DNA of 64,000 nucleotides from Acidimicrobiaceae bacterium. GTDB lineage: Bacteria; Actinomycetota; Acidimicrobiia; Acidimicrobiales; RAAP-2. Below, in pieces: positions 16,510-62,320 of this stretch. Positions within the stretch are counted from its first letter, which is position 1, and each line of letters opens with the position of its first letter. The notes beneath the pieces were generated by a model. The model worked only from the letters and a program-made list of their open reading frames with translations, had not been told where the DNA came from and ran no database searches. The stretch spans positions 6,644 through 70,643 of the forward strand of contig DAIDKS010000001.1 of the NCBI GenBank assembly GCA_027449885.1, in the 5' to 3' direction. Both the position numbers and the translations under genes were made by a program.

Positions 16510-16523
16510 TTAGGGGGTCCACC

Positions 16524-20263: not shown

Positions 20264-20410
20264 GGGGCGACTGTAGTGCGGCGTCGACGACTCCTCGACT
20301 CTCCACCGGCTCACGTGGAAAACGAGGGAATATCCCGGGAATTACGGGACTTTCGACTCACGGGAGCCCGGCGACCGCCCGCTACCCTGGCCTCGTCACG
20401 AGGAGGAGAC

Positions 20411-21070: not shown

Positions 21071-21074
21071 GCCG

Positions 21075-21791: not shown

Positions 21792-21792
21792 G

Positions 21793-22239
21793 CTACGCGC
21801 CCGGCGCGGGCAAGGAGGCGAGGAGCGCCCCGAGGCCGACCGCGACGAGCGAGAGGACGAGCGTGAGCCGCGCGTAGCGTCCCGCCCGCTCCGAGCGAGC
21901 CCTCGCGGCGCGCCCGTGCGCGAGGCTCGCGGCGACGAGCCCCACCACGACGACCATCTTCAGCCCGAAGGCGACCCCGAGCGCACTGCGCCCGCCGCGG
22001 ACGAGCACGTGGTCGTGCACCGCGAGCAGGACGCCGGTGACGAGGAGGAGGGGCCACGCGACGTGGTGCGAGCCCCGGGTGAAGCGCTGACCCATCGGCC
22101 GCAGGGCCGCACCGAAGACCCGGGGCTCCAGCGCCTCGCGCAGCGACGGCGTGATCGAGCGCAGCAGCAGCTGTCCCCCGACCCACCAGGCCATGGCCAG
22201 CACGTGCCCGGCCAGGACGACGGCCCACACGTACGACAC
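21793..22239 (-). CDS. Four-TM membrane protein (CopD/DUF4149-like)
   Basis: HVLAMAWWVGG, LLVTG, LKM...AHG pattern. Confidence 0.6.
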   Translation of the reverse strand: MSYVWAVVLAGHVLAMAWWVGGQLLLRSITPSLREALEPRVFGAALRPMGQRFTRGSHHVAWPLLLVTGVLLAVHDHVLVRGGRSALGVAFGLKMVVVVGLVAASLAHGRAARARSERAGRYARLTLVLSLVAVGLGALLASLPAPGA

Positions 22240-22299
22240 GGCGCCTCCTCTCCGGGGGGCACACTAGCCCCGGAGAGGAGGCGCCTCGCCGCCGGACGG

Positions 22300-23124: not shown

Positions 23125-23130
23125 CGGGGC

Positions 23131-24063: not shown

Positions 24064-24171
24064 CGGTTCCTCCGTTCTCGTGGGTCTCCAGTGTCGCGGG
24101 TCCGCCCCCCGGGTCGACTCCGCCGGGCGGCTACTTGTGCGCGTCGCCCGGACGACCTCCGCGCTCCGATC

Positions 24172-24191
24172 CGTCCTCCGCACGGAGGACG
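24172..24191. promoter_or_regulatory. Palindrome between divergent ABC and two-component genes (likely response-regulator site)
   Basis: CGTCCTCCG-CA-CGGAGGACG. Confidence 0.45.
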
Positions 24192-24245
24192 TCCGTCATC
24201 CCCGCGACGGACCCACGAGCCGCCCCGGCTCGGTAGCGTCGAGGC

Positions 24246-25409
24246 GTGAGCGAGTCCACCGGCGACGCCGCGCTGCCCTGGGTCGAGCGAATGACGCCGG
24301 CCGCATGGACGGCCGTCGACGCCGCCGTCGCCGTCCTGCTCGCGGCGGCCACCCTCACCCACCTCTACGCCTTTCCCTCGTCGATCCCCCGTGCCGCCCT
24401 CGTCCCCGTCGACCTCGCCGCCACCCTCCCCGTCGCCGTCCGGCGACGCTTCCCCGGTGCGATCCTGATCGTCGTGACGCTGGCGGTCACGATCTCGACG
24501 GCCGCGGGACGCTCCCTCGCCCCGGCACCGGTGATCGCCCTGCCCCTCTACTCCCTCACCGTCACGACCGGCCGGCGGCGCTCCCTCTACGCGCTCGTCG
24601 CCGTCGAGGCGTCCCTCCTCGGCGGACTCCTCGGGGCCTCCCTAGCCCACCACGCCCAGGGCGACGTCACGTTCAACCTGGTCCTCGCCGGGGCCAGCTG
24701 GGTCGTGGGCGACGCGGTGCGCACCCGGCGGGGCTACCTCGCCGAGCAGGAGCGCGAACGCCGGCGCCGAGCGGTCGACGACGCCACCCGCGCCGTCGTG
24801 GACGAGCGACTGGCCATCGCTCGCGAACTGCACGACGTCCTCGCCCACAGCCTCGCGGTGATCGCCATCCAGTCCGGCGTAGGGCGTCACGTCCTCGACA
24901 CGCAGCCCGACCAGGCTCGCGAGGCGCTCGAGGCCGTCGAGCACACCAGCCGCAGCGCACTCGACGAGCTCCGACGCGTTCTCGGTGCCCTGCGATCGGA
25001 CGACGTCGAGCGCGTGCCGACGCCCGGCGTCGCTGACCTCGGCGACCTCGCCGCACGGGTCAGCGCGACGGGCACCCCCGTCGAGATCTCCGTCGAGGGT
25101 GACCCGAACCGCCTCGCCCCGGGACTCCAACTGTCGCTCTACCGAATCGCCCAGGAGGCCCTCACGAACGTGGTGAAGCACGCCCCCGGGGCGCGAGCCC
25201 GGGTGGACCTGCGGGTCGACGCCGACGAGGTCCGTCTCGAGGTCACCAACACCCCGAGCGCCCGCACCCGTCCGGCCGGACCGCCGGGTCACGGCCTCGT
25301 CGGCATGCGCGAGCGGGCGTCCCTCTACGGCGGGACCCTGACGGCCGAGCCGCGGGTGCGCGGAGGGTTCGCCGTCACCGCCCACTTCCCCCACCGGAGC
25401 CCGACGTGA
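24246..25409 (+). CDS. Sensor histidine kinase (HisKA_3)
   Basis: ERLAIARELHDVLAH, QEALTNVVKHA, GHGLVGMRER. Confidence 0.93.
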   Translation: MSESTGDAALPWVERMTPAAWTAVDAAVAVLLAAATLTHLYAFPSSIPRAALVPVDLAATLPVAVRRRFPGAILIVVTLAVTISTAAGRSLAPAPVIALPLYSLTVTTGRRRSLYALVAVEASLLGGLLGASLAHHAQGDVTFNLVLAGASWVVGDAVRTRRGYLAEQERERRRRAVDDATRAVVDERLAIARELHDVLAHSLAVIAIQSGVGRHVLDTQPDQAREALEAVEHTSRSALDELRRVLGALRSDDVERVPTPGVADLGDLAARVSATGTPVEISVEGDPNRLAPGLQLSLYRIAQEALTNVVKHAPGARARVDLRVDADEVRLEVTNTPSARTRPAGPPGHGLVGMRERASLYGGTLTAEPRVRGGFAVTAHFPHRSPT

Positions 25410-26059
25410 GCATCCGCGTCATGGTCGCTGACGACCAGGCCCTCATTCGGGCCGGGTTCCGGGTGCTGATCGACTCCTCACCCGACTGCCTCGTCGTCGC
25501 CGAGGCGTCCGACGGCGCCGAGGCCGTGCGCCAGGCGAGTCACACCCGACCCGACGTGGTCCTCATGGACATCCGGATGCCCGTCATGGACGGGATCGAG
25601 GCCACTCGACTCATCGCCTCCGACCCGGCGCTCGGCGACACGCGCGTCGTCATCCTCACCACCTTCGACCTCGACGAGTACGTCTACGAGGCCCTCCGGG
25701 TCGGGGCGAGCGGCTTCTTGCTGAAGGACACGCCCCCCGAGGACCTGCTCGCCGCCATCCGGGTGGTCGCGCGGGGCGACGCGCTCCTCTCCCCCAGCGT
25801 CACTCGTCGTGTGATCGCGCAGTTCAATCGACTGGCTCCTCCCTCGCCCACCGGGGAGTCCTCCTTCGCGGCCCTCACCGACCGCGAGCGCGAGGTCCTC
25901 TCCGCGGTCGCCCGGGGGCTCACCAACTCCGAGATCGCCGACGACCTCCACATGAGCGTCGCCACGGTGAAGACCCACGTCAGTCGGATCCTCGCCAAGC
26001 TCGACGCACGGGACCGAACCCAGCTGGTCGTCCTCGCCTACCAGGCCGGTCTCGCCTAG
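25406..26059 (+). CDS. NarL-family response regulator
   Basis: [21 protein letters not shown]...TVKTHV. Confidence 0.95.
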
Positions 26060-26862
26060 TTGCCCAACTCGTCGGCGAGCACCGCGACCGAGCTGACGAT
26101 GCGCGAGGGCCGGTAGGGGAAGTGCTCGGCGGCGTGGGCCTCGGACACCCCGGAGAGGACCAGGACCGTGTGCAGTCCCGCCTCGAGTCCGGCGACCACG
26201 TCGGTGTCCATGCGGTCGCCGACCATGGCGGTCGTCTCGGAGTGGGCCTTCAGCTCCCGCAACGCCGAACGGATCATCAGGGGATTCGGCTTGCCCACGA
26301 AGTACGGCGAGCGTCCCGTCGCCTTCGAGAGGAGCGCCGCGACGGCCCCCGTCGCGGGCAGCGGACCCTCGAGGCTCGGGCCGGTGGGGTCCGGGTTGGT
26401 CGCGATGAACCGCGCGCCCCGGTTGATCAGCCGCACCGCCGTCGTGAGCTGCTCGAAGGAGAGGTTGCGCGTCTCCCCGACGACGACGTAGTCGGGCGAC
26501 ATCTCGGTGAGCGTGTAACCCACCTGGTGCAGTGCGGTCGTGAGGCCCACGTCACCGATGGCGAAGGCCGTGCCGTGGGGGCGCTGGGTGTGGAGGAACG
26601 AGGCCGTGGCCAGCGCCGACGTCCAGATGCGCTCCTCGGGCACCTCGAGTCCGTTGTGGCGCAGCCGCGCCGCGAGGTCGCGGCGCGTGTAGATCGAGTT
26701 GTTGGTGAGGACGAGAAACGGGGTCCCCCGGCGCGACAGCGCGTCGAGGAAGCGATCCGCCCCCTCGACCAGGTGCTCCTCGCGCACCAGCACGCCGTCC
26801 ATGTCGAGCAGCCACGCGCCGACCTCGGTGGCCGACGTGATGGGGGTGGGATCGTTGCTCAC
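26056..26862 (-). CDS. HAD-IIA hydrolase (NagD-like)
   Basis: [30 protein letters not shown]. Confidence 0.92.
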
Positions 26863-26916
26863 GGTTCTCCTCGGGCGATGGCTCCCCCGGACCGTACCAT
26901 CGCGATCCGCGACGCC

Positions 26917-27273
26917 CTACGCGAAGCGAGCGATCGCCCACGGGACGGTGACCCAGAGCGGCCACCACCCCTGCACCCCGCCACCGGTGACCCAGATCAC
27001 CAGCCAGATACCCCACAACCCTCCCACCGAGCCCACGAAGGCACGGACGTGCCGCGGGGCTCGGCGGCGCCAGGGCACCGCCTCGGGCGGTGGATCGGGT
27101 AGGTCGTGGGTCAGTGCGGCCACCTCGCCATGCGTCGTGGACCTCAGCAGGACGTCGATCCGACGCTCGAACTCCACCACGTCCAGCCGGCCCTCCGCGC
27201 GGGCCTCGCGCAAACGTGCAGCGATCGCGTCGCGCTCCCGATCGGACAGGCGCAGGTCGGGCGAGTCGGGCAC
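26917..27273 (-). CDS. DUF1707-domain membrane protein
   Basis: LRLSDRERD...EGRLDVVEFERR...LTHDLP plus 2 TMs. Confidence 0.8.
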   Translation of the reverse strand: MPDSPDLRLSDRERDAIAARLREARAEGRLDVVEFERRIDVLLRSTTHGEVAALTHDLPDPPPEAVPWRRRAPRHVRAFVGSVGGLWGIWLVIWVTGGGVQGWWPLWVTVPWAIARFA

Positions 27274-27330
27274 GGCTCAGTGTCGCACGCCGTCGCGTTC
27301 CCGTCAACGGACATTGACCCGATCGGACAT

Positions 27331-27346
27331 ATACCCCCCGGGGTAT
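27331..27346. promoter_or_regulatory. CsoR/CstR-type operator
   Basis: ATACCCCCCGGGGTAT pseudo-palindrome with C/G tracts upstream of the rhodanese gene. Confidence 0.7.
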
Positions 27347-27387
27347 CTGTATACTGGAGCGATCTCACCCGAGCAAAGGAGAGTGAC

Positions 27388-27714
27388 GTGTTCCAGGAAG
27401 TCGACCTGAGCCACTTCAGCGCGGCCCACGCCGACGGGGCCCTCGTCGTGGACGTGCGCGAGCCCCACGAGTACGAGTCCGGCCACGTGCCCGGCGCCCG
27501 CCTGATCCCTCTGGGCATCCTCGCCCACCACGCCGCCGACCTCCCGTCCGATCGCCCCATCTACGTCGTCTGCCAGAGCGGCGGTCGCAGCCGTAGCGCG
27601 GCCGCCTTCCTCCACCAGCTGGGGCACGACGTGCGGTCCGTCCTCGGCGGCACCGGCGCGTGGATCGCGGCGGGGCGTCCCGTCGTGCGCGGCGTCCGCG
27701 CGAACGCGGTCTGA
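27388..27714 (+). CDS. Single-domain rhodanese/sulfurtransferase
   Basis: VDVREPHEYESGHVPGA, active-site CQSGGRS; AAGGAG RBS. Confidence 0.92.
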   Translation: MFQEVDLSHFSAAHADGALVVDVREPHEYESGHVPGARLIPLGILAHHAADLPSDRPIYVVCQSGGRSRSAAAFLHQLGHDVRSVLGGTGAWIAAGRPVVRGVRANAV

Positions 27715-27807
27715 GCCTCGGCCCACCCCCTCGACCCCCCTCGAGGGGGTGGGCCCCTCTCGAGGGCGCGAGCCACGCGGCACCGGGTCACACGGCACAC
27801 TGGATCG

Positions 27808-28299
27808 GTGCTCGACCACTTCGCACCACTCGCCACTCCCCGACTCGAGCTGCGGCCCATCGGGCGCGACCTCGCCCGATCGATAGCCGGCGGTGACGTC
27901 AGCGCCCTGCGAACGGCGCCCGGCTGGCCGCAGCCCGGCACCGTGAACGGCGTTCGGATGGCTCTCGAGCGGGGGCAGCCCGCCGGGTGGCTCGTCATCC
28001 TCGACGACGAGGTCGTCGGTGACTGTGGCGTCCACGCACCCGTCGACGAGGACGGTCGCGTCGAGATCGGCTACGGCCTGGCCGAGCCCTTTCGCGGCCG
28101 CGGACTCGGAACCGAGCTGGTGTCGACGGTGTCCGGGTGGCTGCTCGACCATCCCGACGTGCGAGAGGTGTCCGCGCGAATCGAGCGCGACAACGCGGCG
28201 AGTCGCCGCGTCCTCGAGAGGGCCGACTTCGAGCCGCTCCGGGCGGCGTCACCGAGCGACGACCTCCTCACCCTCGTGCGCCGTCGACCGAAGGCGTGA
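27808..28299 (+). CDS. GNAT N-acetyltransferase (RimJ/RimL-like)
   Basis: VEIGYGL...FRGRGLGTE, NAASRRVLER. Confidence 0.85.
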   Translation: MLDHFAPLATPRLELRPIGRDLARSIAGGDVSALRTAPGWPQPGTVNGVRMALERGQPAGWLVILDDEVVGDCGVHAPVDEDGRVEIGYGLAEPFRGRGLGTELVSTVSGWLLDHPDVREVSARIERDNAASRRVLERADFEPLRAASPSDDLLTLVRRRPKA

Positions 28300-28455
28300 C
28301 GCTCCGTCCCCGGGCCCGCACGGCCCAGGGACCGAGCGACCGGGAGCCACTCGACGAGCCGCGCCGCCGCACTCGTACCGCCCCTCCGGCGGGATGCCGG
28401 ACGGGGTGCACAATGGTCTCAACGGGCGCGCGGCGCCCCCACGAAGGAGGTCACC

Positions 28456-29502
28456 ATGAAGGCCGTCCAGTATCGCGAGTTCGGCGGACACCCGGAGGTC
28501 GTGGAGATCGATCGACCGACCCCCGGGCCGGGCCAGGTCCTGCTGCGCGTCACCGCGGCCGGACTGTGCCACTCCGACGTCTTCGTCATGAGCCTGCCCC
28601 GCGAGCAGTACTTCCTCGGCACCCTGCCCCTGACGCTCGGCCACGAGGGGGTCGGCGTCGTCGCCGAGCTGGGGCCGGGCGTCTCCTCCGTGGCCGTCGG
28701 TGACGCCGTGGCCGTCTACGGTCCGTGGGGCTGTGGGACCTGCCACCAGTGCGCCCAGGGTCACGAGAACTACTGCGAGCGAGCGAGCGACCTCGGCATC
28801 CTCGCCCCGGGACTCGGCGCCCCGGGGGCCATGGCCGAGTACATGCTCGTCGACGACCCCCGACACCTCGTGCCGATCGTCGACCTCGATCCGGCGGAGG
28901 CGGCCCCCCTCACCGACGCCGGCCTCACTCCCTACCACGCGATCAGGCCCTCCCTCCCGAAGCTCGGGGCGGGGTCCTTCGCCGTCGTCCTGGGGGCGGG
29001 CGGACTCGGGCACGTGGGCATTCAGATCCTGAGAGCCCTGTCGGGGGCACGGATCATCGCCCTCGACGTCGACGACGCCAAGTTGGCCCTGGCTCGCGAT
29101 TGCGGGGCCGACGAGGCCCTGCGCTCCGACGACCCCGAGGTGGTCGAACGGGTCCGCTCCCTCACCGGGGGCCGGGGAGCCGCCGGCGTCTTCGACTTCG
29201 CCGGCTTCCAGTCGAGCCTCGACGTCGCGACCCAGCTCGTCGCCGTGGGCGGGGACTTCAAGATCGTCGGCCTCGGGATGGGCGGCGCGACGGTCCCGGT
29301 GGGCTTCTTCACCACCCCCTACGAGGCGACGGTGAGGACGACCTACTGGGGATACCGTCACGAGTTGGCCGAGGTGATCGAGCTCGCCCGCCGGGGCCAG
29401 ATCCGGGTCCACGTCGAACGATTCTCCCTCGACGACGCCCCGGAGGCCTACGAGCGGCTGCACCGGGGGACCCTCACCGGCCGCGCCGTCGTCATCCCCT
29501 AG
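28456..29502 (+). CDS. Zn-dependent NAD alcohol dehydrogenase
   Basis: GLCHSD, GHEGVG, CGTCHQC...C, GAGGLG. Confidence 0.95.
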   Translation: MKAVQYREFGGHPEVVEIDRPTPGPGQVLLRVTAAGLCHSDVFVMSLPREQYFLGTLPLTLGHEGVGVVAELGPGVSSVAVGDAVAVYGPWGCGTCHQCAQGHENYCERASDLGILAPGLGAPGAMAEYMLVDDPRHLVPIVDLDPAEAAPLTDAGLTPYHAIRPSLPKLGAGSFAVVLGAGGLGHVGIQILRALSGARIIALDVDDAKLALARDCGADEALRSDDPEVVERVRSLTGGRGAAGVFDFAGFQSSLDVATQLVAVGGDFKIVGLGMGGATVPVGFFTTPYEATVRTTYWGYRHELAEVIELARRGQIRVHVERFSLDDAPEAYERLHRGTLTGRAVVIP

Positions 29503-29600
29503 GCGGGCCCGTCCGGCGAACGGTCGATCGACCCGCCGGCCCCGGCGACATACGCCACGACCAGGGAGAACACTCTCTCGACGCACGTCTCACCGGATTA

Positions 29601-29618
29601 TCACAGGATCCTCACAGG
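29601..29618 (+). promoter_or_regulatory. Direct repeat TCACAG-N5-TCACAG (OmpR/PhoP-type box)
   Basis: TCACAGGATCCTCACAGG, 11-bp period, about 85 bp upstream of the dapB-like gene. Confidence 0.4.
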
Positions 29619-29702
29619 GTCGTGCCAGGCACTCCGAGCAGCGTAGGAGAGGGGCGGTCCCGGACCCGGGCCTCCCCCGCCACCGACGTAGGGAGGTGAA
29701 CC

Positions 29703-30635
29703 GTGCGCGTAGGTCTCATGGGCTTTGGCACGACCGGATCCGCCGTCGCCCGCGTGCTGCTCGGCAGCCCGACGACGTCGCTCGAGTGGGTCGTTCGCGA
29801 CAGCGACCGTCACGGACAGCGCTCCGCGGGCGACGTGCTCGACGTCCCCTCGTCCTCGCCCGCCCTGATCGTCTCGCGGTGGGACCTCACGGCCGGCGAC
29901 CTCCTCGAACGTCATCCCGTCGACGTGATCATCGACTTCTCGAGCGAGGACGGGCTCGACTACTACGGGGAGGCGGCGGCGGCGCGCGGGGTGAGCATCG
30001 TCTCGGCCATCTCGCACTACTCGGTCGTGAAGCAGCGCAAGCTGGAACGGCTGAGTCGGACGACCGCCGTGCTGTGGTCCCCCAACATCACGCTCGGCAT
30101 CAACTTCCTGATCCTCGCGGCCCAGACGCTGCGGCGCATCGCGCCCTCCGTCGACGTCGAGATCATCGAGGAGCACTTCAAGGACAAGCGCAACGTCTCG
30201 GGCACGGCGAAGGTCATCGCGGGAGCCCTGGACCTTCCCGAGCAGGACATCAAGTCGGTCCGCGCGGGCGGCATCGTCGGGGTCCACGAGATCCTCTTCG
30301 GCATGCCACACCAGACGATCCGCCTTCGCCACGAGTCGGTCTCGCGCGAGGCGTTCGGGACCGGGGCCCTTTTCGTCTCGGAGCGCCTCGAGGGCAAGCC
30401 ACCCGGTCTCTACAAGATGGACGACCTGCTACTCCCCTTCTTCGCGACCACCGAGGAGACGCGCCGGCCGTCCTGGCGCGAGCGGCTCTTCCGCGTCGGC
30501 GCCCGTAGCGCCGCGCGACGTCGTCGTCGCGAGGAGATCCAGGCCGCGATCGACACCCTCAGCCACCCGTCCACGACGCATCTGGTCGTCGACGACGTCG
30601 TCCCCCACCCCGCCCGCGACGACGCGCGACACTAG
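29703..30635 (+). CDS. Dihydrodipicolinate-reductase (DapB)-like oxidoreductase
   Basis: GFGTTG, IIDFS, SPNITLGIN, IIEEHFKDK...SGTA, RAGGIVGVH. Confidence 0.78.
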   Translation: MRVGLMGFGTTGSAVARVLLGSPTTSLEWVVRDSDRHGQRSAGDVLDVPSSSPALIVSRWDLTAGDLLERHPVDVIIDFSSEDGLDYYGEAAAARGVSIVSAISHYSVVKQRKLERLSRTTAVLWSPNITLGINFLILAAQTLRRIAPSVDVEIIEEHFKDKRNVSGTAKVIAGALDLPEQDIKSVRAGGIVGVHEILFGMPHQTIRLRHESVSREAFGTGALFVSERLEGKPPGLYKMDDLLLPFFATTEETRRPSWRERLFRVGARSAARRRRREEIQAAIDTLSHPSTTHLVVDDVVPHPARDDARH

Positions 30636-51759: not shown

Positions 51760-52140
51760 CATGGGCAGATCCTCACGGTTCTGGCGCGAAAGGAGTCACT
51801 CAGCGCCATCGCCCGTTCACTCGGACGGTGGCCATCGACGGTGGCCCTGCACGGTCGCGGCCATCGGTAGGCGTAGCGACGATTCCCTCCACGATGCTCA
51901 GCGACGCGCCCAGTGCCAGGCTCAACGTCCCAAGAGAGCCAAACTCTGCGCCGAGCAGTTGTCGAAGGACGTGTCAAGGCGGCTGGAGACGCTGCGAAGT
52001 CCCGAGAAGATCTCGGCGCCGCTGCCAGCGGCCGACCGGCGACGAATCCATGCGAGCATCAACGGGCGTCCGCGTGCCACCCTTGGCCACGTGACACCGT
52101 TGGAAAGGTTCGCCAACCTCGTTGCGCTCACTGTTAAACC
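51760..52140 (+). pseudogene. IS30-family transposase remnant (frameshifted, catalytic core deleted)
   Basis: SLSAIARSLGRWPSTV HTH in one frame; AQRPKRAKL...SPEKIS joined to the C-terminal INGRPRATLGHVTPLERF...VALTV in another. Confidence 0.7.
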
Positions 52141-52299
52141 GCCTCCATCGAACTAAGAGTGATTCAAACCTCTACCTCAGAGACATCGTGGCGAAGGACC
52201 TTCGAGCGCGCTTGGCTCGAGGATCCGACCCGCCCGCTCTCTTCACCATCGGCACGCGAATGGCGTCCTCGACCGGGCCCGTGAAATCAGCGTCGAATG

Positions 52300-52534
52300 C
52301 CGTGGCACGTTGGGAGGCAAGACATCCAAGACCCATTTGTTTGCTTGGCTTCTCGTCCAAAAGTACGGGGCTTGCAGGGCCCCGTACTCGCGTGCCAATC
52401 AGTCGAAGCACTCCCATCGCTGACCACATCAGGAAGAACCACGCAGAGGCCATCCCATGGTTACGGTCTCAGCCTTCTCTCCTGGTCCGCCAGAGAATAC
52501 CGTGGCAACTACCGAGGCAGCACCAACCCGATCC
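52300..52534 (+). repeat. Right end of element B
   Basis: CCGTGGCA at 52300 and 52500, CCGAGGCA at 52512; AGTACGGGGC-TTGCAGG-GCCCCGTACT at 52362-52388. Confidence 0.88.
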
Positions 52535-52608
52535 TGGAGGCGGCGTCCGGATTCGAACCGGAGTACGGGGCTTTGCAGGCCCCTGCCTAACCACTCGGCC
52601 ACGCCGCC
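52535..52608 (-). tRNA. tRNA-Cys(GCA)
   Basis: GGCGGCGTGGCCGAGTGGTTAGGCA-GGGGC-CTGCAAA-GCCCC-GTACTCCGGTTCGAATCCGGACGCCGCCTCCA. Confidence 0.98.
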
Positions 52609-52654
52609 AGGACGTCTCATCCTAACCGGTCGCCGCGAAAAGCCCGTCCCCTCG

Positions 52655-53935
52655 TCACCCCTGCGCGTCCGGACCGAAGGCGCGCTCTCGCCGTCGGGCG
52701 ACGCGCAACCCCTCCTCACCGAGGTCGGCTCCCGTGGCGACCGCGTCGGAGCCGAACCGCTCACGGATCTCGTCGAGCGCGTCGCGCAGGGCCTCCCCCG
52801 CCGCCTGGTGGGCCCGCGAGGCCTCGACGGCCCCGACCCGCCCCGCCCCCGACTCGTCGACGTCGAGCGCGAGCTGCACGGCGTTTCTCGCCCGGGCGAC
52901 GAGCCCCGATCCGTAGAGGCCGATGAGCCGCACCGCCTGGCCCAGGGGCACCGACGCCGCGAGGGCCTCGGCGACCGCCGCCAGGCCGGCGGCGTCGTCC
53001 ACTCCGAAGGGCAGCGTCTGCGATCGACTGACGGAGGTCCGGTCGTCGAAGCGAATCTGGATCGAGACCGTTCGAGCGACGACCCCCTCGTGGCGCAATG
53101 CCCGCGCCACGACCCCGGCGTGATGGCGAAGCGCCGCGGCCACCTCCGCGCGGCCCCGGAGCGAGACCGCGAAGGTCTGGTCGTGTCCGATCGACTTCGG
53201 CGCGCGGTCGACGACCACCTCCCGCGGGTCCTCACCTCGCGCGAAGGCGGCGAGCGTCGCGGCCATCGCTGGTCCCACGATGCCCGCGAGGTCGCTCACC
53301 TCGACGCTCGCCAGGTCGCGGACCCGACGCAGCCCCACCCGTCGCAGCCGCTCGGACGTCGCCGGCCCGACCCCCCAGAGGGCGTCGACCTCCAACTCGT
53401 CCAGCCAGCGCGCCTCCGTCGCCCGATCGACCACGACGACGCCCACCCCCGCGCTCACGCCCCCCGCCGTCACCCGGGGCTTGGCGCGTCGCGACCCGAG
53501 CTTGGCGAAGAGCTTGTTGCGGGCGAGTCCGATCCCGCACTCGAGCGACAACTCGTCGCGAATGCGCCGGCGGAGGTCCCGCGCGCCGTCCAGGGGACGG
53601 ATGCCCAGGCGATGCAGGCCGCGCAGGTCCGCGAAGAGCTCGTCCAGGCCGATCGGCTCGACGCGGGGAGTGAGGTCCTCGACCAGGGCGCGGAAGCGTC
53701 GCGAGTACTCCTCGTAGCGCTCGAAGCGACCCGGCCGGATGACGAGGTCGGGGCAGCGCCGGCGAGCGAGGATGCTCGACATGCCGCTGCGCACGCCGTA
53801 GCGGCGGGCCTCGTACGTGGCGCTCGCGATGACGCCCCGCTCCCCCGACCCGCCTACCGCGAGAGGCACCCCCCGCAGGGAGGGATCGTCGAGGACCTCC
53901 ACGGAGGCGAAGAAGGCGTCGAGGTCCACGTGCAT
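52655..53935 (-). CDS. dinB: DNA polymerase IV (Y family)
   Basis: HVDLDAFFASVE, ATYEARRYGV, IGLDELF, LWGVG. Confidence 0.93.
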   Translation of the reverse strand: MHVDLDAFFASVEVLDDPSLRGVPLAVGGSGERGVIASATYEARRYGVRSGMSSILARRRCPDLVIRPGRFERYEEYSRRFRALVEDLTPRVEPIGLDELFADLRGLHRLGIRPLDGARDLRRRIRDELSLECGIGLARNKLFAKLGSRRAKPRVTAGGVSAGVGVVVVDRATEARWLDELEVDALWGVGPATSERLRRVGLRRVRDLASVEVSDLAGIVGPAMAATLAAFARGEDPREVVVDRAPKSIGHDQTFAVSLRGRAEVAAALRHHAGVVARALRHEGVVARTVSIQIRFDDRTSVSRSQTLPFGVDDAAGLAAVAEALAASVPLGQAVRLIGLYGSGLVARARNAVQLALDVDESGAGRVGAVEASRAHQAAGEALRDALDEIRERFGSDAVATGADLGEEGLRVARRRERAFGPDAQG

Positions 53936-53963
53936 GACGGGCGCCTCGTCGAGGCTCGGCTCC

Positions 53964-54667
53964 TCAGCGCGCGAACTCAAGGGCCCGAAAGGCCTCTCCG
54001 TAGCGCACCCCGACCTCGCGCCCCGTCTGGGCCGCGCGCCGGCGAACCGCGTCGTCGACGGCCTCGGCGTCACCGGCGACCTGCGAGGCGTGCGCCCGGA
54101 CGGCGGCCGACTTCACGTCGATCGCCCCGGTCACGTCGACCACCACGTCGGGCTCGTGCGTGCCCGACAGCAGCATCACCGCCACCCCGTGCGCCGGGCC
54201 ACACTCGGGGTAGTAGGCGGGCATGGACGCGGCCGGCGCGACCGCATCGAGCAGGGCCCAGCCGGTCTCGCGGTGGTCCCGGTGGTTCACGTAGACCCCG
54301 CCGAAGAACACGGCGGTCGGATCGGGCCCGATCACCATGTCGGGCCGCACGTCGCGGATGACGCCCACGAGGCGTGACCGGAGGGCGTCGTCGTTCGTCA
54401 CGGCCCCGTCCGGAATGCCGAGGAGCTGGACGCTCGCGAGCCCCAGAAGCGCTCCGGCGCTCTCGATCTCGGCTCGACGTACCTCGGGCAGGGCGACCCC
54501 TTCGGTGGAGTCGTGCGAACCCTTGTCGCCCTGGCAGACGACCACCAGGTGGACGCTCGCCCCCTCGCGCGCGAAGGTGGCGAGGGCTCCTCCCGCGGCG
54601 ACGTCGGCGTCGTCGGGATGGGCGTAGACGGCGAGGACGCTCGTCGGGCGAGGGTGGTACAGCCGCA

Positions 54668-54668
<1 letters not shown>
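53964..54668 (-). CDS. PIG-L/LmbE-family deacetylase
   Basis: AHPDDAD, RRAE, NHRDH. Confidence 0.9.
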
Positions 54669-55138
<470 letters not shown>

Positions 55139-55173
55139 GCGGCCACGTTACACCCGTCCCCGCGACCGCCGTC

Positions 55174-55593
55174 CTAGGGGACGAGCACGTGCTCGCCGGG
55201 GACGACGACGTCCGAGCGCAACTCGCGAACGAGGGCCCCTCGCGCGAGCGCGGGGTCGAGCGGATTGATCGCTCGGGCGATCGAGCCCACCGTGTCGCCG
55301 GCCCGGACGACGTAGACCGTCCCCGAGGCGAGGGCCGACCCGGTCGCGAGGTCGGTCGGCAGCCCCGACCCCGTGACCCCTCCGAGGGCGGATCCGGGAG
55401 AGCCGAGCACCGCGAGACCCCCGATCGCGGCGAGAGCCATGGCCGCCACGCGCCGACGAGCGCGCGTCCGGGCCCGGCGCGCCCGACGTACCGCCCACCC
55501 GGGTCCCGTGCGCCCCGGGTCACTCGGCGCCGCCACGAGCCGCAGCGCGGGTCGGGTCGGGGGGTAAGCGACCTCGAGGTTGAGCAGAGCCAC
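55174..55593 (-). CDS. Membrane-anchored LysM protein (YneA/ChiZ-like SOS division inhibitor)
   Basis: TM then YVVRAGDTVGSIA...VPGEHVLVP; LexA boxes upstream; precedes nrdR. Confidence 0.82.
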   Translation of the reverse strand: MALLNLEVAYPPTRPALRLVAAPSDPGRTGPGWAVRRARRARTRARRRVAAMALAAIGGLAVLGSPGSALGGVTGSGLPTDLATGSALASGTVYVVRAGDTVGSIARAINPLDPALARGALVRELRSDVVVPGEHVLVP

Positions 55594-55607
55594 GGCTCTC
55601 CTTTCAG

Positions 55608-55644
55608 CGAACACCTGTTCGTCACTATACCGAACAGGTGTTCG
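55608..55644. promoter_or_regulatory. Two LexA (SOS) boxes
   Basis: CGAAC-ACCT-GTTCG (55608-55621) and CGAAC-AGGT-GTTCG (55631-55644). Confidence 0.9.
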
Positions 55645-55647
55645 CTG

Positions 55648-56988
55648 TCAACGAGTGACCAGTTCCCCCAGGGCGCGCCCGACGCGCCCGAACCGGTTCA
55701 GATCGGTCCCGACCAGGGATGACGCCCGGTGAATGGCCTCGGGCGCCTCGTCGACGGATCGCACCAGGCGCACCCGCCCCTCCCACACCAGTCGGGCGCA
55801 CGCCCGGGTGATCGCCTCGTCGGGCTGATCGTTCGAGTCCGTCACCTGACCATCGGTGACCCAGACGACGGGCTCACTGGGGCGGCGGCGGCGGAGGGAC
55901 CACTCGAGAACCGACTGGTCCGCGCCGTTGCCCACGTTCCCGTGCGGCACGGGTGATCGCACGCGCCCCTCGTCCGCGACGATCCAGGCGTTCGGCGTTG
56001 CGCCGGGATCCCCCGGTCGGTGGCTGTAGCCCACGACGAGGGACCGCGTCGCCCGAGCGATGACGCGCTCAAGTACGGCGGCGTCCAGATCCATCGAGCC
56101 CGACTGGTCGACGATCACGATCCCGCCCGCCCGGGAGCGACAGTGCGCGAAGGCACGACGTGAGGGATCGGTCAGCAGTCGACTGGGGTAGCGCAGCACC
56201 GCTCCCGTGGCCGCTCCGCCGATGGCCCGAGGGGCTCGGCCACCCCCCGGCTCGACGCCGCTCGACGGGACGGCCCAGACGAGCGGTGCCGGCCGACCAC
56301 TCGGCACGCGCCGGCCCCCCGGTGCGAGGGACCGGCGAAAGCCCTCCATCTCGCGACGATCGCGCGGGACCCTCGCCGAACCGGCGCGATCGGCCATCCG
56401 GGCGATCTCCACGCTCACGTCGTAGCCGCGGGGCAGGCCCCGCGCCCCCGGAACGGTGGCCCCCAGGTCGGACGTGCGGTGCTCGGCCAGCATGGCCTTC
56501 ACTCGTCGGCGCACCACGACGAGCGCCGACGCCCACGTCGCGTCGACGCGACGGACCGCCGCGAGATACGGCCGTTCGCCCCCGGTGCCGAGCACGGCCA
56601 GCCACAGGCACACGACCTCGGACCACGCGCCCGACTGGGCCAGCCGCCGGGCCCCCTCCGCCTCCGTCCCGTCGCGCAGGCACTCGACCGCGAAGCCGAG
56701 GCGACCGAGCAGGGAGTTGACCCGCAGCTCCTCGGCGCACTCGAGAGCCCGGGCCGAGACGCCGAGCTCACTGGGCGAGACCGGTTCGTCGGGACTGACG
56801 CGGGCGTGGGCGAGCTCGTGGGCGCGCACCACGCGCTCCACCGCGCTCTCCCCCAGCGGCACTTCGAGCACCCGGCGCGTGAAGTCGCAACTCGCCCCAC
56901 CGCGTCGGGCGCTCCCCGGAACGACCCGCCACGAGCGGGCCGACTCCGCGTCGCGAGCCCCGCTCACCAGCTCCGGGTAGACGCTCAC
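55648..56988 (-). CDS. HExxH-motif plus VWA-like (MIDAS) protein
   Basis: AHELAH near the N-terminus; IVIVDQSGSM and VVWVTDG. Confidence 0.7.
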   Translation of the reverse strand: MSVYPELVSGARDAESARSWRVVPGSARRGGASCDFTRRVLEVPLGESAVERVVRAHELAHARVSPDEPVSPSELGVSARALECAEELRVNSLLGRLGFAVECLRDGTEAEGARRLAQSGAWSEVVCLWLAVLGTGGERPYLAAVRRVDATWASALVVVRRRVKAMLAEHRTSDLGATVPGARGLPRGYDVSVEIARMADRAGSARVPRDRREMEGFRRSLAPGGRRVPSGRPAPLVWAVPSSGVEPGGGRAPRAIGGAATGAVLRYPSRLLTDPSRRAFAHCRSRAGGIVIVDQSGSMDLDAAVLERVIARATRSLVVGYSHRPGDPGATPNAWIVADEGRVRSPVPHGNVGNGADQSVLEWSLRRRRPSEPVVWVTDGQVTDSNDQPDEAITRACARLVWEGRVRLVRSVDEAPEAIHRASSLVGTDLNRFGRVGRALGELVTR

Positions 56989-57701
56989 GCGAGAGCTCCG
57001 AGACGTAGGGCGTCCAGGAGGTCGTCGGCCTCGCTGCCGAAGACGAGGTCGGCGGCCCGGCGCGCACCGTGATGACGCCGCAGGCGATCGAACGCCGCGA
57101 ACCGTCGCAGCGAGACGCGGCGTCCGTGCTCTCCCGCCGACCCCGCGAGGGCCGGACCGCGCAGGTCCTCGCTGAGCGCCGCGACGGCGGCCGTCGGTGG
57201 GCGATCGATGCGCACCGCGACCGGGAACCGGTCACGCAGGGGGGCGGGCAGTAGCGACAGGTCCTCCAGGTTGGTCGTCATGACGACGCTGAAGGAGGGG
57301 CCCGGGCGTCGCCACTCGCCGCTGCGCGGGTCGCGCCACGCGGCCGACTCGCGCGAGTCGGTGACGGCGAGCAGGGCGCTCAGGGCGTCCCCCGACGCCC
57401 GATCGACCTCGTCGACGACGAGCCGCCCTCCCCCGCCTCCCGCCGACCACGCCCGCAGGGCCGGTCCATCGAGCCAGGTCCAGGTGGCCTCACCGGTCGG
57501 CATCCACGTGCCCGTCACCTCGGCGCTCGTGAGGTCTTCCGTGCACACGAGCCGCTCCGCGGGGCCCTCGACGACCCCGAGGTGCAGCGCGGCGTAGGTC
57601 TTGCCGGTTCCCGGGGGACCGTAGAGGATCAGCCGGTCGATGCCGGCCGCCAGCACGTCCGTGACGTCACTCCAACAGTCCCCCCAGGTCTCTCGCTCCA
57701 C
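56985..57701 (-). CDS. MoxR/CbbQ/NirQ-type AAA+ ATPase
   Basis: LYGPPGTGKT, LVVDEVDRA, VMTTN, PLRDRF. Confidence 0.85.
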   Translation of the reverse strand: MERETWGDCWSDVTDVLAAGIDRLILYGPPGTGKTYAALHLGVVEGPAERLVCTEDLTSAEVTGTWMPTGEATWTWLDGPALRAWSAGGGGGRLVVDEVDRASGDALSALLAVTDSRESAAWRDPRSGEWRRPGPSFSVVMTTNLEDLSLLPAPLRDRFPVAVRIDRPPTAAVAALSEDLRGPALAGSAGEHGRRVSLRRFAAFDRLRRHHGARRAADLVFGSEADDLLDALRLGALA

Positions 57702-57736
57702 GATGGCGCCTCCTTCTCGGGAGGACCAACGGTCGC

Positions 57737-58168
57737 TCAGGCGTCGCGGCCGAGCTTCTCGAGGATCGGCAGGCTTCGCTCGAGGAGGCGTCGCTCGGCG
57801 GTCGTCAGCGTCGCGAGGCGCTGTTCGATGCCGAGGGAGCGCGCCGCCCGCAGCGTGGCGAGGGTATCGTGACCGGCGGCCGTGAGCGCGACCCGCCACG
57901 CACGACCGTCGTCCGGATCGGGCTCCCGGCTGAGCAGCCCGATCTCCTCCAGGCTGGCCACGACCCGGGTCGCGGCGGGGGCCCCGAGCATCTCGAGCGT
58001 CGCGAGCGTGCTGATCCGCATCGGCTCGCCCTCCTCGATCGTCACCAGGGCCGAGACCTGACTGGGCGAGAGGCCGGCCGCGCCGTGGCGGCGGATCATG
58101 CGCATGAGTCGGGTCGCCACCAACTGCAGCCGAGCCGCCGTCGTCGCTTCGAGGGTCCCGGCGATCAT
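57737..58168 (-). CDS. MarR-family regulator
   Basis: [35 protein letters not shown]. Confidence 0.88.
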
Positions 58169-59979: not shown

Positions 59980-60550
59980 TCATTCCACCCCGGGCGACAC
60001 CCCCGAGAGCTCCGGGGCGAACCGAGCGAAGCGCTGGTCGACCGGTGCGTGAATCACGTGGTTCGTGTCGTTGCTGATCGTCGTCATCGCGTTGGCGAGG
60101 ATGACCTCCAGAACCTGGCGCTCCATATAGCCGACGGCCACGAGCTCGGCGGGGGTCTCGTCACTCGGGTGGCCGCGCCGCTCGACGAGTTCGAGCGTCC
60201 GGCGACGCAACGCCTCGTGGCGTGGTGACGCGAGGGGCGTCGTCCAGACGACAGCGTGCACCACGTCAGGATCGACGCCATTCGCCGTGACGATCGCGCC
60301 GTGTGCCGCCGGGCAGTACCGGCAGTCGTGACACTGACTCGCGGCGAGCACGACGTTCTCCTGCTCCGTGGCGTCGACGCCTCCGCCGTCGCGGAACGCC
60401 TCGTAGCCGTGACGGTAGGTCGACAGGAGGCCGGGCGAGTTCGCCCGAGCCGCGCAGTGGTGGGGAATCCTCGCCCGAAGGGGCTCCCGATCTCTCGCGA
60501 ACCCTCCGGGGCGTCGTCGTAGGTGAGCGGCGGGAGCAACCGAGGGATGC
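59980..60550 (-). pseudogene. CMD/AhpD-family gene, apparently frameshifted
   Basis: LPPLTYDDAPEGSR in one frame; RIP...ANSPGLL...CRYCPAAH continues in another. Confidence 0.6.
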
Positions 60551-60741
60551 CGGACGTGGCAGACCTTTCCGTGCATTTGCCCCACTCGAGACAGATCGGT
60601 ACATGTCGGATGCTCGGCGGGAGGGACAACGTATCGAGATCCTGAAGAGCGTCTCAGCCAGCCTCGTTCTAGACAAGAAACATTCTTTGAGTCCGGTCCC
60701 CTTCCCGATATGGTCGCTGGAAGTTATCGAGAGGGGGGCGC

Positions 60742-61503
60742 ATGCGATTCCGAACTCCGTCAATCCCGCGTCGGTCGACCACTAGCTCACGACGCCGGGT
60801 GGCGTCGATCGTGACGGCGGCGGGTCTCGTCGCCCTTCCCCCGCTCGCCTTGATCCCCTGGGCCGCTCCGGCGTCGGGCAGCCCCTCCACACCCTTCAAC
60901 TTCCTCGTGCGGCACCAGGCCTACCTGGTGCTCCGCACGCGTGCGGGGGCCGTGTCGTACATCCCGATCTCCGCGTACTCCTGGGGCCTACATCGCGTGA
61001 TGGAGTCGTCACCCACCAGTCTCAGTGGGCCCGTGATCGGACCGGTTCGGATGGACGACCTCGTCGTGACGCGTCAGATCGACCAGTCGAGCCCCAGCCT
61101 CGTGGCGCAACTCGCCAACGCGACAGCCTTCGACAGCGTCCTCCTCGAGATCCCCGTACTGGCCAATCGGTACGCGAACGTCCCCGAGAACTACTACCAG
61201 CCGGTGGAGTTCCGGAACCCGGTCCTGATCTCCGATGCGTGGAGCGCATCCCCGACGAACGTCAACCAGGGAGTGCTGGTGTCCAGCGAGCGTCTCGAGT
61301 TCACGTACGACAAGGCCACCGTGCTGACACCGGTCCACACGTACAACCCGCCCACCACGGTGCCGCCCACGACGGTGCCGCCCACGACGTCCACGAGCAC
61401 GTCGACGACCACGACGACGGCTCCGCCACCACCCCCGCCACCGCCGACGACCGCTCCCACGACGACAACGACCGGCATCCCCAACTCCATCCCGCTGGGA
61501 TAA
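60742..61503 (+). CDS. Secreted Hcp-like (T6SS/phage tube fold) protein with Pro/Thr-rich tail
   Basis: Signal peptide; IPISAYSWG, DLVVTRQIDQSSPSL, YYQPVEFRNPVLIS, SERLEFTYDK resemble Hcp1 motifs. Confidence 0.65.
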   Translation: MRFRTPSIPRRSTTSSRRRVASIVTAAGLVALPPLALIPWAAPASGSPSTPFNFLVRHQAYLVLRTRAGAVSYIPISAYSWGLHRVMESSPTSLSGPVIGPVRMDDLVVTRQIDQSSPSLVAQLANATAFDSVLLEIPVLANRYANVPENYYQPVEFRNPVLISDAWSASPTNVNQGVLVSSERLEFTYDKATVLTPVHTYNPPTTVPPTTVPPTTSTSTSTTTTTAPPPPPPPPTTAPTTTTTGIPNSIPLG

Positions 61504-61609: not shown

Positions 61610-62320
61610 TCAGCCCTCGACGGCTTCTCCGAGGTAGACGGCTCGAACCCGGGGGTCAACGAGGAGGTTGGCGGCGCTGTCTCCGAAGACGATCCGACCG
61701 TTCTCCATCACGTAACCCCGGTCCGCGAGCTGCAGGGCCTGAGAGGCGTTCTGCTCGACCACGAGGACCGTCGTCCCACTGTCGCGGATCTCACCAATGA
61801 TCCGGAAGATCTGCTCGATGATCATCGGAGCGAGGCCCATGGACGGCTCGTCGAGCAAGATGAGGCGCGGCTGGCTCATCAGTGCTCTGCCGATGGCCAG
61901 CATCTGCTGCTCCCCTCCGGAGAGATTGCCGCCGAGTTGCTTGCGACGCTCCTTCAGGATCGGGAAGGTCGAGTACATCCGCTCGATGTCGTCGGAGATG
62001 GAGCCTCGCCGTCGGAAGGCGCCCATCTCGAGGTTCTCCTCCACCGTCATCTGTGGGAAGATGCGACGCCCCTCGGGCACGTGGCTGATGCCCCGTGCGC
62101 TCATCTCGTGCGCCTTGACGCGTGACACGTCCTTCCCCTCGAACCACACCGATCCACTCGCCGGTGCGTGCAGTCCCGAGATCATGCGCAGAGTGGTCGA
62201 CTTGCCCGCCCCGTTCGCGCCGAGCAGGGTCACGATCTCCCCCTGCTGCACCTCGAACGAGATTCCGTGGAGCGCGGTGATGGCCCCGTAACTGACGACG
62301 GCGTCGCGAACCTCCAGCAT
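61610..62320 (-). CDS. livF: Branched-chain amino acid ABC ATPase
   Basis: GANGAGKST, HVPEGRRIF, LSGGEQQMLAIGR. Confidence 0.93.
   Translation of the reverse strand: MLEVRDAVVSYGAITALHGISFEVQQGEIVTLLGANGAGKSTTLRMISGLHAPASGSVWFEGKDVSRVKAHEMSARGISHVPEGRRIFPQMTVEENLEMGAFRRRGSISDDIERMYSTFPILKERRKQLGGNLSGGEQQMLAIGRALMSQPRLILLDEPSMGLAPMIIEQIFRIIGEIRDSGTTVLVVEQNASQALQLADRGYVMENGRIVFGDSAANLLVDPRVRAVYLGEAVEG

What the first reader, a model, noticed from the sequence alone, without database searches (positions are those of the whole stretch)
60742..61503. Orphan Hcp-like tube protein with signal peptide in a monoderm bacterium
Seen: basic N-region with SRRR, hydrophobic stretch and APA cleavage-like site, then motifs resembling Hcp1, then a PTT/PPP linker-like tail. 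Known: T6SS Hcp has no signal peptide and sits in T6SS loci of diderms; no T6SS or phage-tail genes are in this window. Inference: a domesticated tube-fold protein exported by Sec or Tat, perhaps forming surface rings or filaments.
Basis: partly seen in the sequence, partly recalled or inferred. Interest (0 to 1): 0.65.

Follow-up and report, generated by a model that had tools for sequence, protein, structure and literature searches.

The report
Exported orphan Hcp protein, Gram-positive host
An acid-loving actinobacterium with a single membrane and no type VI secretion machinery encodes a true copy of that machine's tube protein (Hcp), carrying an export leader and a threonine/proline-rich tail, so the fold has apparently been reused outside the cell for an unknown, probably cell-envelope, job.

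Summary
Window 60742-61503 (+) encodes a 253-aa protein with three parts: an Arg-rich, hydrophobic leader ending APA|SG; an Hcp domain (Pfam PF05638, 38 bits against a 23.5 cut-off; model core pLDDT above 90; best structural match T6SS Hcp1, Z 14.3); and a 53-residue Thr/Pro tail.

The host is an Acidimicrobiaceae-type actinobacterium. It has a sortase and no Omp85, so it is a monoderm. No TssC, phage-type sheath, gp25 or VgrG was found in its 84%-complete genome, and TssC was found in none of 400 genomes of its class.

A second copy with the same build lies on another contig. The seven tail-bearing proteins found in the database searches form one clade, next to leader-bearing forms from the same genus. 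The paralogue lineage is under purifying selection (dN/dS 0.25). The window copy's Hcp domain evolves about ten times faster than its flanking genes.

Leader-bearing Hcp proteins are common in metagenomes, and this scan has already met them on other DNA (Asgard archaea, Alphaproteobacteria, Acidobacteria). I found no paper describing them. This is therefore a monoderm, tail-bearing variant of a largely undescribed exported-Hcp group. Ring assembly and function remain inferred.

The parts
60729..60738 (+). Purine-rich Shine-Dalgarno-like run (GAGAGGGGGG), 3 nt upstream of the ATG
   Evidence: Read directly from the sequence. It supports the ATG at 60742 as the start, over the GTG at 60811.
60742..60873 (+). 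Predicted cleavable signal peptide, residues 1-44. It has an Arg-rich n-region (1-19, with SRRR), a hydrophobic h-region (20-41) and an APA|SG c-region.
   Evidence: hydrophobic window 2.2 at residue 19. The same three-part leader is seen in the paralogue and in clade relatives. No SignalP-type tool was available, so the cleavage site is inferred from the AxA rule.
60910..61341 (+). Hcp (T6SS tube protein) fold domain, residues 57-200
   Evidence: Pfam PF05638 scores 38.1 bits over residues 68-194. The AlphaFold2 core has pLDDT above 90. Foldseek's top hits are Hcp1 structures 4w64, 3eaa, 1y12 and 4hkh, with target-normalised TM-score (TMt) up to 0.72. VIA-align gives 4hkh_A Z 14.3 over residues 57-200.
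61342..61500 (+). Thr/Pro-rich low-complexity tail, residues 201-253, ending in IPLG
   Evidence: It is predicted disordered (pLDDT below 50 for most of it). 51 of 53 residues are identical in the orthologue P0002, against 78% identity for the Hcp domain. Equivalent tails are seen in the paralogue, P0008, P0011, P0012, P0016, L120, L124 and L125.
61501..61503 (+). TAA stop codon. The gene is monocistronic, lying between a divergent CMD-family gene (59980-60585, -) and a convergent LivF-type ABC ATPase gene (61610-62320, -).

Best explanation
This is a real, expressed-looking gene for an Hcp-fold protein that works outside the cytoplasm and independently of any contractile injection machine. 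Shown: the Hcp fold; the N-terminal leader; the Thr/Pro tail; a monoderm Acidimicrobiaceae-type host; none of the sheath, baseplate or spike genes searched for was found; membership in a conserved actinobacterial clade that all carries leaders. Inferred: the leader takes the preprotein through Sec (less likely Tat) and is cut after APA44. That releases a mature protein of about 209 aa, made of a 145-residue Hcp beta-barrel and a 53-residue extended Thr/Pro tail. By homology the barrel most likely assembles into six-membered rings, with six flexible tails projecting from each ring into or through the peptidoglycan layer. The ring would then be an envelope-associated scaffold or binding module, not part of a tube that is fired. 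The window copy is a fast-evolving paralogue, as expected for a surface-exposed protein.
For: Fold: Pfam PF05638 scores above its cut-off. The AlphaFold2 model from 82 sequences has a core pLDDT above 90. T6SS Hcp structures rank first in Foldseek (E 3e-8, target-normalised TM-score (TMt) up to 0.72) and in VIA-align (Z 12-14.3, against 8-11 for eCIS and phage tubes).

Export: the leader has basic, hydrophobic and AxA parts. All 10 members of the surrounding clade have a hydrophobic N-terminus; most also have a basic n-region (P0002 and P0008, as called, start inside the h-region). The leader region of the paralogue lineage is under purifying selection (dN/dS 0.36). In all nine Thr-rich proteins of this genome whose sequences I read (seven besides the two Hcp copies), a signal peptide or transmembrane segment precedes the Thr-rich stretch. 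TatC is present.

Independence from T6SS and eCIS: the genome has no VipB, Phage_sheath_1, gp25, Phage_GPD or T4 gp19. VipB was found in 0 of 400 genomes of the class, 20 of which have Hcp genes. Phage-type sheaths overlap only 3 Hcp-positive genomes, on other contigs, and were found in none of the same-genus genomes.

Monoderm host: the best LivG matches are Acidimicrobiaceae MAGs. Omp85 is absent and a sortase is present, and the control genomes separate as expected.

Functional gene family: there are two paralogues in the genome. The tail-bearing proteins form one clade with support 97. dN/dS is 0.25 over dS 0.68.

Ring inference: the nearest non-orthologous hits are secreted proteins with tandem Hcp domains, six domains in 6 of 8 by my HMM (5 of 8 by Pfam).
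Against: No signal-peptide predictor and no multimer prediction could be run, so cleavage and ring formation are inferences. The window copy is divergent: its Pfam score is only 38 bits, TIGR03344 scores 20 bits against a cut-off of 58.9, and it lacks the near-invariant G-E of the N-terminal GES motif. Its Hcp domain differs at 22% of residues from the orthologue, while the flanking genes differ at 2-3%. That could mean relaxed constraint instead of a surface arms race. There is no wall anchor: no LPXTG, no C-terminal transmembrane helix and no wall-binding domain. No protein O-mannosyltransferase (PF02366) was found, so how the tail would hold the protein in the envelope is unknown. No conserved neighbour gene gives a functional hint. 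The genome is 84% complete.
Confidence: 0.6

Rival explanations
1. The hydrophobic N-terminus is not cleaved and acts as a signal-anchor. The protein would then be a type II membrane protein, with the Hcp domain held at the outer face of the membrane and the Thr/Pro tail reaching outward through the wall.
For: The h-region is long, about 22 residues. There is no other anchor in the protein. Several class relatives have N-terminal transmembrane-like segments followed by long spacers before the Hcp domain (L091, L093, L106). If the GTG at codon 24 is the true start, as called for P0002, there is no basic n-region.
Against: AxA motifs follow the h-region in the window copy (APA|SG), in the paralogue (ASA|SR) and in P0012 (ALA|QA). 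Prolines lie inside and after the h-region, which is typical of cleaved leaders. In the wider family the leader ends in AxA exactly where leaderless Hcp proteins begin.
Confidence: 0.15
2. The exported Hcp domain works as a monomeric binding or adhesin-type beta-barrel module, not as a ring. The fold is reused only as a stable scaffold on a flexible stalk.
For: Relatives fuse Hcp domains to dockerin, Big, MBG or collagen-like repeats, as adhesins do. The window copy has lost conserved N-terminal motif residues and evolves fast.
Against: Tandem relatives mostly have exactly six domains, which points to a six-membered unit. The model matches complete Hcp protomers end to end, with Z 14.
Confidence: 0.15
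3. The window copy is a decaying or neutrally drifting duplicate with no current function.
For: It sits on a long branch of 1.34 and has a low Pfam score. Its domain diverges 22% from a genome whose flanking genes differ by 2-3%. No close orthologue was found in 100 other species of the genus.
Against: The frame is intact in both known copies. The leader and the low-complexity tail are 95-96% conserved although such tails normally vary in length. A strong ribosome-binding site is present. The model folds with a core pLDDT above 90.
Confidence: 0.07
4. It is the tube of an unrecognised or unassembled contractile system encoded in the missing 16% of the genome.
For: The genome is only 84% complete, and even rpoB is missing from the assembly.
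Against: A signal peptide is incompatible with assembly inside a cytoplasmic sheath. TssC was found in 0 of 400 genomes of the class, and no phage-type sheath was found in 13 genomes of the genus.
Confidence: 0.03

Closest known systems
Hcp / TssD, the inner-tube protein of bacterial type VI secretion (PF05638; e.g. EAEC Hcp1 4HKH, P. aeruginosa Hcp1 1Y12, E. tarda EvpC 3EAA)
   Same: It has the same domain family and fold over the whole protomer. It is closer to T6SS Hcp than to eCIS or phage tubes.
   Different: It has a leader peptide and a Thr/Pro tail. The host is a monoderm. None of the T6SS core genes searched for (TssC, TssE/gp25, VgrG) was found in the genome, and no TssC in the sampled class. 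It scores below the TIGR03344 cut-off and lacks the GES motif residues.
Leader-bearing Hcp proteins of metagenomes and of other phyla. In databases they are labelled T6SS tube proteins. They have been noted earlier in this scan in Asgard archaea, an alphaproteobacterium and an acidobacterium. PEP-CTERM-bearing Hcp genes were filtered out by Howard et al. 2021, PMC8262886.
   Same: Both have an export leader in front of a full Hcp domain and lie away from any injection machinery.
   Different: This clade is actinobacterial (monoderm). It carries a Thr/Pro C-terminal tail that arose once. It has no conserved partner gene, unlike the Asgard pairs. It is much more divergent in sequence.
Secreted proteins with six tandem Hcp domains (P0003, P0005, P0006, P0010, P0015)
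   Same: These are the best non-orthologous sequence matches to the window protein. They are exported, carrying a Planctomycete extracellular motif or a dockerin.
   Different: Their six domains lie in one chain of 1000-1450 aa. The window protein has one domain and would need six chains for a ring.
Tube proteins of extracellular contractile injection systems and phage tails (e.g. Streptomyces CIS 8BL4/9GTP, PVC 6J0B, AFP 6RAO)
   Same: They share the tail-tube fold superfamily (Z 8-11). Such systems do occur in Actinomycetota.
   Different: The structural match is weaker than to T6SS Hcp. There is no PF06841 match, no sheath or baseplate gene in the genome, and those tubes have no leader.

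Membership tests
Pfam T6SS_HCP domain family (PF05638) | Score above the curated gathering cut-off over most of the model | tested here: met
   38.1 bits against 23.5, model positions 14-127 of 129. The paralogue scores 56.4 bits.
Pfam T6SS_HCP domain family (PF05638) | Hcp beta-barrel fold | tested here: met
   Model core pLDDT above 90. 4hkh_A gives Z 14.3, rmsd 3.3 A, 130 residues aligned. Foldseek probability is 1.00 to many Hcp structures.
Functional T6SS tube protein TssD | NCBIfam TIGR03344 score above its cut-off | tested here: not met
   20.2 bits against a cut-off of 58.9
Functional T6SS tube protein TssD | No signal peptide; assembles in the cytoplasm inside the TssBC sheath | tested here: not met
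   An N-terminal leader with basic, hydrophobic and AxA parts is present and conserved in the clade. This was judged by heuristics, not by SignalP.
Functional T6SS tube protein TssD | T6SS core genes in the same genome (TssB/C sheath, TssE/gp25, VgrG) | tested here: not met
   No VipB, GPW_gp25 or Phage_GPD in the 84%-complete genome. VipB was found in 0 of 400 genomes of the class.
Functional T6SS tube protein TssD | Diderm host | tested here: not met
   The host has Acidimicrobiaceae affinity. Omp85 is absent and a sortase is present, and the controls behave as expected.
Functional T6SS tube protein TssD | Hexameric rings that stack into a tube | not testable with these tools
   Only single-chain prediction was available. 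There is indirect support from six-domain tandem relatives.
eCIS / phage tail tube proteins | Phage_T4_gp19-type tube family match and linked sheath and baseplate genes | tested here: not met
   The genome has no PF06841, PF04984 or PF04965. The PF06841 control search rang in no control genome, so that single result is weak. The structural match to these tubes is lower (Z 8-11) than to T6SS Hcp.
Tat substrates | Twin-arginine motif (S/T-R-R-x-F-L-K) before a mildly hydrophobic h-region, and a Tat machinery in the genome | tested here: inconclusive
   SRRRVAS is present and TatC is encoded. However, the RR is not conserved across the clade (P0011, P0016, L086 and L122 lack it). A clear Tat motif (TRRNLLKGAG) occurs only in a different Hcp clade, L094/L104.
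Sortase-anchored wall proteins | C-terminal LPXTG, a hydrophobic helix and a basic tail | tested here: not met
   The C-terminus is ...TTTTGIPNSIPLG, with no LPXTG and no helix, although a sortase gene exists.

The most novel reading that the evidence does not exclude
Monoderm actinobacteria export Hcp subunits that assemble outside the membrane into six-membered rings carrying six Thr/Pro stalks. This would be a T6SS-independent envelope structure, and part of a phylum-spanning and so far undescribed extracytoplasmic branch of the tail-tube fold. It would show that Hcp rings have a life of their own apart from contractile machines, and it might bear on how the T6SS tube originated.
Probability: 0.3. 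Interest if true: 0.75.

Novelty: new variant of a known kind. Interest (0 to 1): 0.55.

Why it matters
Hcp is taken as a hallmark of type VI secretion, and automatic annotation calls every PF05638 protein a 'T6SS tube protein'. Here the fold sits in a Gram-positive-type bacterium that cannot have a T6SS, behind an export leader, in a conserved and selected clade. That shows the annotation is wrong for this group, and that the Hcp fold has a second, extracytoplasmic use whose function is unknown. Acidimicrobiia include cultured acidophiles, so localisation, oligomeric state and knock-out phenotypes are testable. The result also extends the exported-Hcp group, seen earlier in diderms and archaea, to monoderm bacteria.

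Tried and rejected
I therefore could not fetch the DNA or the context of the orthologue P0002, and could not compute dN/dS for the window copy.

2. The search for related loci with the alignment failed because it had no conserved stretch. With P0001 alone it found no relative in genome contigs.

3. Synteny: the two nearest Acidimicrobiaceae LivG loci have no Hcp gene. The MFS genes next to the window copy and next to L086 are only 27% identical, so they are not syntenic.

4. Conserved partner gene, as in the Asgard cases: none was found. The neighbours are CMD, MFS, LivF, YkuD, SLT, a SHOCT-like protein and a lipoprotein-like protein, different at each locus.

5. C-terminal 'PLG' as a sorting motif: it looked conserved in the first seven proteins (PLG, ALG, VLG, PLQ, LPQ). 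Further genus members end in LGPQ, AALT and PIAG, so it is not a strict motif.

6. O-mannosylation of the tail: no PMT (PF02366) was found, so this is unsupported.

7. Promoter and terminator scans found nothing, and the 3' hairpin is no better than shuffled sequence.

8. PADLOC gave no hit. PHROGs gave only an unknown-function family for relatives.

9. rpoB for taxonomy: it is absent from the assembly.

10. The first structure model, from 8 sequences, was poor (pLDDT 55) and was replaced.

11. Six literature searches found no description of leader-bearing Hcp in monoderms or of tandem Hcp proteins.

Full report
THE OBJECT. Window 60742-61503 (+) is an intact ORF of 253 codons. A purine-rich run (GAGAGGGGGG, 60729-60738) ends 3 nt before the ATG. 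The gene stands alone. Upstream lies a divergent carboxymuconolactone-decarboxylase-family gene and an MFS transporter gene. Downstream lie convergent LivF/LivG-type ABC ATPase genes. The simple scans found no promoter or terminator.

ANATOMY. Residues 1-19 are basic (seven Arg, including SRRR). Residues 20-41 are hydrophobic; the best 12-residue Kyte-Doolittle window is 2.2, against 1.0 or less in leaderless Hcp homologues. Residues 42-44 are APA, followed by SG. Residues 57-200 are the globular domain. Residues 201-253 are a Thr/Pro-rich tail ending in IPLG.

THE FOLD.
- Pfam T6SS_HCP scores 38.1 bits (cut-off 23.5, E 2.3e-9) over model positions 14-127 of 129.
- NCBIfam TIGR03344 (TssD) scores only 20 bits against a cut-off of 58.9.
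- A model from 8 sequences was poor.
- A model from an 82-sequence alignment (A2) gave pLDDT above 90 for most of residues 60-200, with a disordered leader and tail.
- Foldseek against the PDB lists only Hcp proteins at the top: 4w64, 3eaa, 1y12 and 4hkh (target-normalised TM-score (TMt) 0.72, rmsd 3.1 A).
- VIA-align against 48,161 representative chains, which does not depend on Foldseek, gives T6SS Hcp structures Z 12-14.3. eCIS and phage tail tubes follow at Z 8-11.

THE HOST. The window lies in a 1.98-Mb, 49-contig assembly that is 84% complete. The LivG-type protein of the window is 70% and 65% identical to two Acidimicrobiaceae MAGs and at most 53% identical to anything else. No Omp85/BamA is found, and that family rang in all seven diderm controls and in no monoderm control. 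A sortase is present, and that family rang only in the three Gram-positive controls. The host is therefore a monoderm.

NO INJECTION MACHINE. The genome has no match to VipB/TssC, Phage_sheath_1, GPW_gp25, Phage_GPD or Phage_T4_gp19. The last of these rang in no control genome, so that result is weak. Because the genome is incomplete, I also sampled 400 genomes of the class.
- 20 of them carry PF05638.
- None carries VipB.
- 23 carry a phage-type sheath. Only three of those also have an Hcp gene, on a different contig each time, and none is in the same genus.
- In a sample of 401 genomes of the phylum, 14 carry PF05638. That tally includes one unpublished genome, G400, on which nothing else here rests.

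RELATIVES AND THE CLADE. A second gene of the same build lies on contig 47 (L001:1369-2085, minus strand; 238 aa; Pfam 56 bits). It has a leader, an Hcp domain and a Thr-rich tail ending in ALG, and it sits next to a YkuD L,D-transpeptidase gene. An exhaustive phmmer search of 1.84 billion representatives gave only 14 hits:
- one orthologue, P0002, at 83% identity;
- three further single-domain proteins with leader, Hcp domain and Thr/Pro tail (P0008, P0011, P0012);
- three more single-domain proteins (P0009 and P0013 have a leader and no tail; I did not examine P0014);
- seven large proteins with tandem Hcp domains.

A profile search found 87 proteins. Of the 82 single-domain hits that I scored, 56 have a hydrophobic leader. 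In many of them the leader ends in AxA exactly where leaderless forms begin (GYLKIGDIKGES). That proportion is biased, because the query alignment contained leaders.

Within the class, 11 of the 20 Hcp-positive genomes have leader- or TM-bearing forms and 8 have leaderless forms. One pair (L094/L104) has a textbook Tat motif, TRRNLLKGAG. A protein search of 100 further species of the genus found no close orthologue of the window copy. It did find more tail-bearing relatives (L119, L120, L124, L125) and more leader-only forms.

In a FastTree tree of 142 core-domain rows, the seven tail-bearing proteins from the database searches (the genus relatives L119, L120, L124 and L125 were found afterwards and are not in the tree) form one clade (SH-like support 97). 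That clade lies inside a ten-row clade (support 98) with the leader-bearing proteins of two same-genus genomes and one other actinobacterium. The window copy and P0002 share a long branch (1.34). Leaders are scattered over the tree, needing at least 8 changes on well-supported branches. So the tail arose once in an actinobacterial, already exported lineage, while leaders were gained or lost many times in the family.

SELECTION. For the paralogue lineage, G000 against G851, Nei-Gojobori dN/dS is 0.25 at dS 0.68. By part it is 0.36 for the leader, 0.26 for the Hcp domain and 0.14 for the tail. All three parts are therefore kept by selection. Its Hcp domain is 78% identical to the window copy, while the leader and tail are 95-96% identical. 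The flanking LivF and LivG proteins of the same two genomes are 98.3% and 97.0% identical. The domain thus evolves roughly ten times faster than its surroundings. This fits either diversifying selection on an exposed surface or relaxed constraint. The intact frame, the conserved low-complexity tail and the confident fold argue against decay.

MECHANISM.
Shown: the fold, the leader, the tail, the monoderm host, the lack of machinery and the conservation.
Inferred:
- Export is by Sec. The twin arginine is not conserved in the clade, so Tat is less likely, although TatC exists.
- The leader is cleaved after APA44.
- The domain assembles into six-membered rings. The support is that the nearest non-orthologous relatives are secreted proteins with tandem Hcp domains. 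By my HMM six of the eight large proteins have exactly six domains; the other two have seven and three. Pfam counts exactly six in five of the eight, with 7, 5 and 3 in the other three.
- The Thr/Pro tails act as extended stalks in the wall. In this genome, all nine Thr-rich proteins whose sequences I read, seven of them other than the two Hcp copies, have a signal peptide or membrane anchor before the Thr-rich stretch.

There is no wall anchor. No PMT-type O-mannosyltransferase was found. There is no conserved neighbour gene. The role, whether scaffold, binding ring or something else, therefore stays open.

COMPARISON WITH WHAT IS KNOWN. The protein is a member of the Hcp domain family. It fails the defining features of a working T6SS tube protein: it has a leader, its genome has no T6SS, its host is a monoderm, and it scores below the TssD cut-off. 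Six literature searches found no description of leader-bearing Hcp in monoderms or of tandem Hcp proteins. The one relevant trace is the methods section of Howard et al. 2021 (PMC8262886). [quoted passage not shown] This shows that exported forms were seen and set aside. This scan has already reported exported, machinery-less Hcp genes in Asgard archaea (with an anchored partner gene), in an alphaproteobacterium and in an acidobacterium. Those are AI notes and not independent evidence, but my searches show the same pattern directly. What is new here is the monoderm actinobacterial clade, its Thr/Pro tail and the fast-evolving paralogue.

VERDICT. This is a new variant of a known fold family. 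It is of moderate interest because the phenomenon recurs across phyla, is undescribed in the papers I could search, and is testable, but its function is unknown.

Noticed in passing
Proteins P0003, P0004, P0005, P0006, P0007, P0010, P0014, P0015 (metagenomic; not in the window): These are large secreted proteins with tandem Hcp domains. By my HMM, six of the eight have exactly six domains; Pfam counts exactly six in five of the eight (one more has 5, one 7, one 3). Some carry a Planctomycete extracellular motif, a dockerin, or Big or MBG domains. Six domains in one chain suggests a single-chain pseudo-hexameric ring. I found no paper on them.
   Followed up: partly
Loci L084, L085, L087, L088, L089, L096, L097, L100, L103 (Acidimicrobiia genomes): These are leaderless, canonical-looking Hcp genes (for example MAIFAKYDGIDGES...) in monoderm genomes without any TssC. 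In 3 of 8 genomes a phage-type sheath exists, but on another contig. How a leaderless Hcp would be used there is unexplained.
   Followed up: partly
L094 and L104 (G216:C170, two adjacent genes): Two tandem Hcp genes each carry a textbook twin-arginine leader (TTRRNLLKGAGAVAGG...). They are candidates for Tat export of a folded Hcp.
   Followed up: no
L112 (G535) and L101 (G370): In both loci, collagen-like Gly-X-Y repeats lie directly in front of an Hcp domain.
   Followed up: no
G000 contigs C3:1145-2411(+), C35:71356-72247(-), C47 and C1 Hcp genes: Four of five proteins of this genome with a C-terminal Thr-rich tail end in Gly (KAAG, APKG, ALG, PLG). The background is 12.5% for Gly as the last residue. 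Among genus relatives the ending is looser (LGPQ, AALT, PIAG), so this is probably not a strict signal.
   Followed up: partly
L001:348-1319(+) next to the paralogue; L086:414-1067(-) next to a same-genus relative: Two members of the exported-Hcp clade lie beside peptidoglycan-remodelling genes: a YkuD L,D-transpeptidase and an SLT lytic transglycosylase. With only two cases and different enzymes, this is a weak hint of a wall-related role.
   Followed up: partly
window 16000-30000 and 52000-58000: These stretches have 70-75% G+C, against 63-67% elsewhere in the window. They contain long ORFs without Pfam matches (28249-29586, 52457-54361, 55648-56988).
   Followed up: no
G000 (whole assembly): No RNA polymerase beta subunit domain (PF00562) was found in the assembly. 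This reminds us that 'not found' in this 84%-complete MAG is weak evidence.
   Followed up: no
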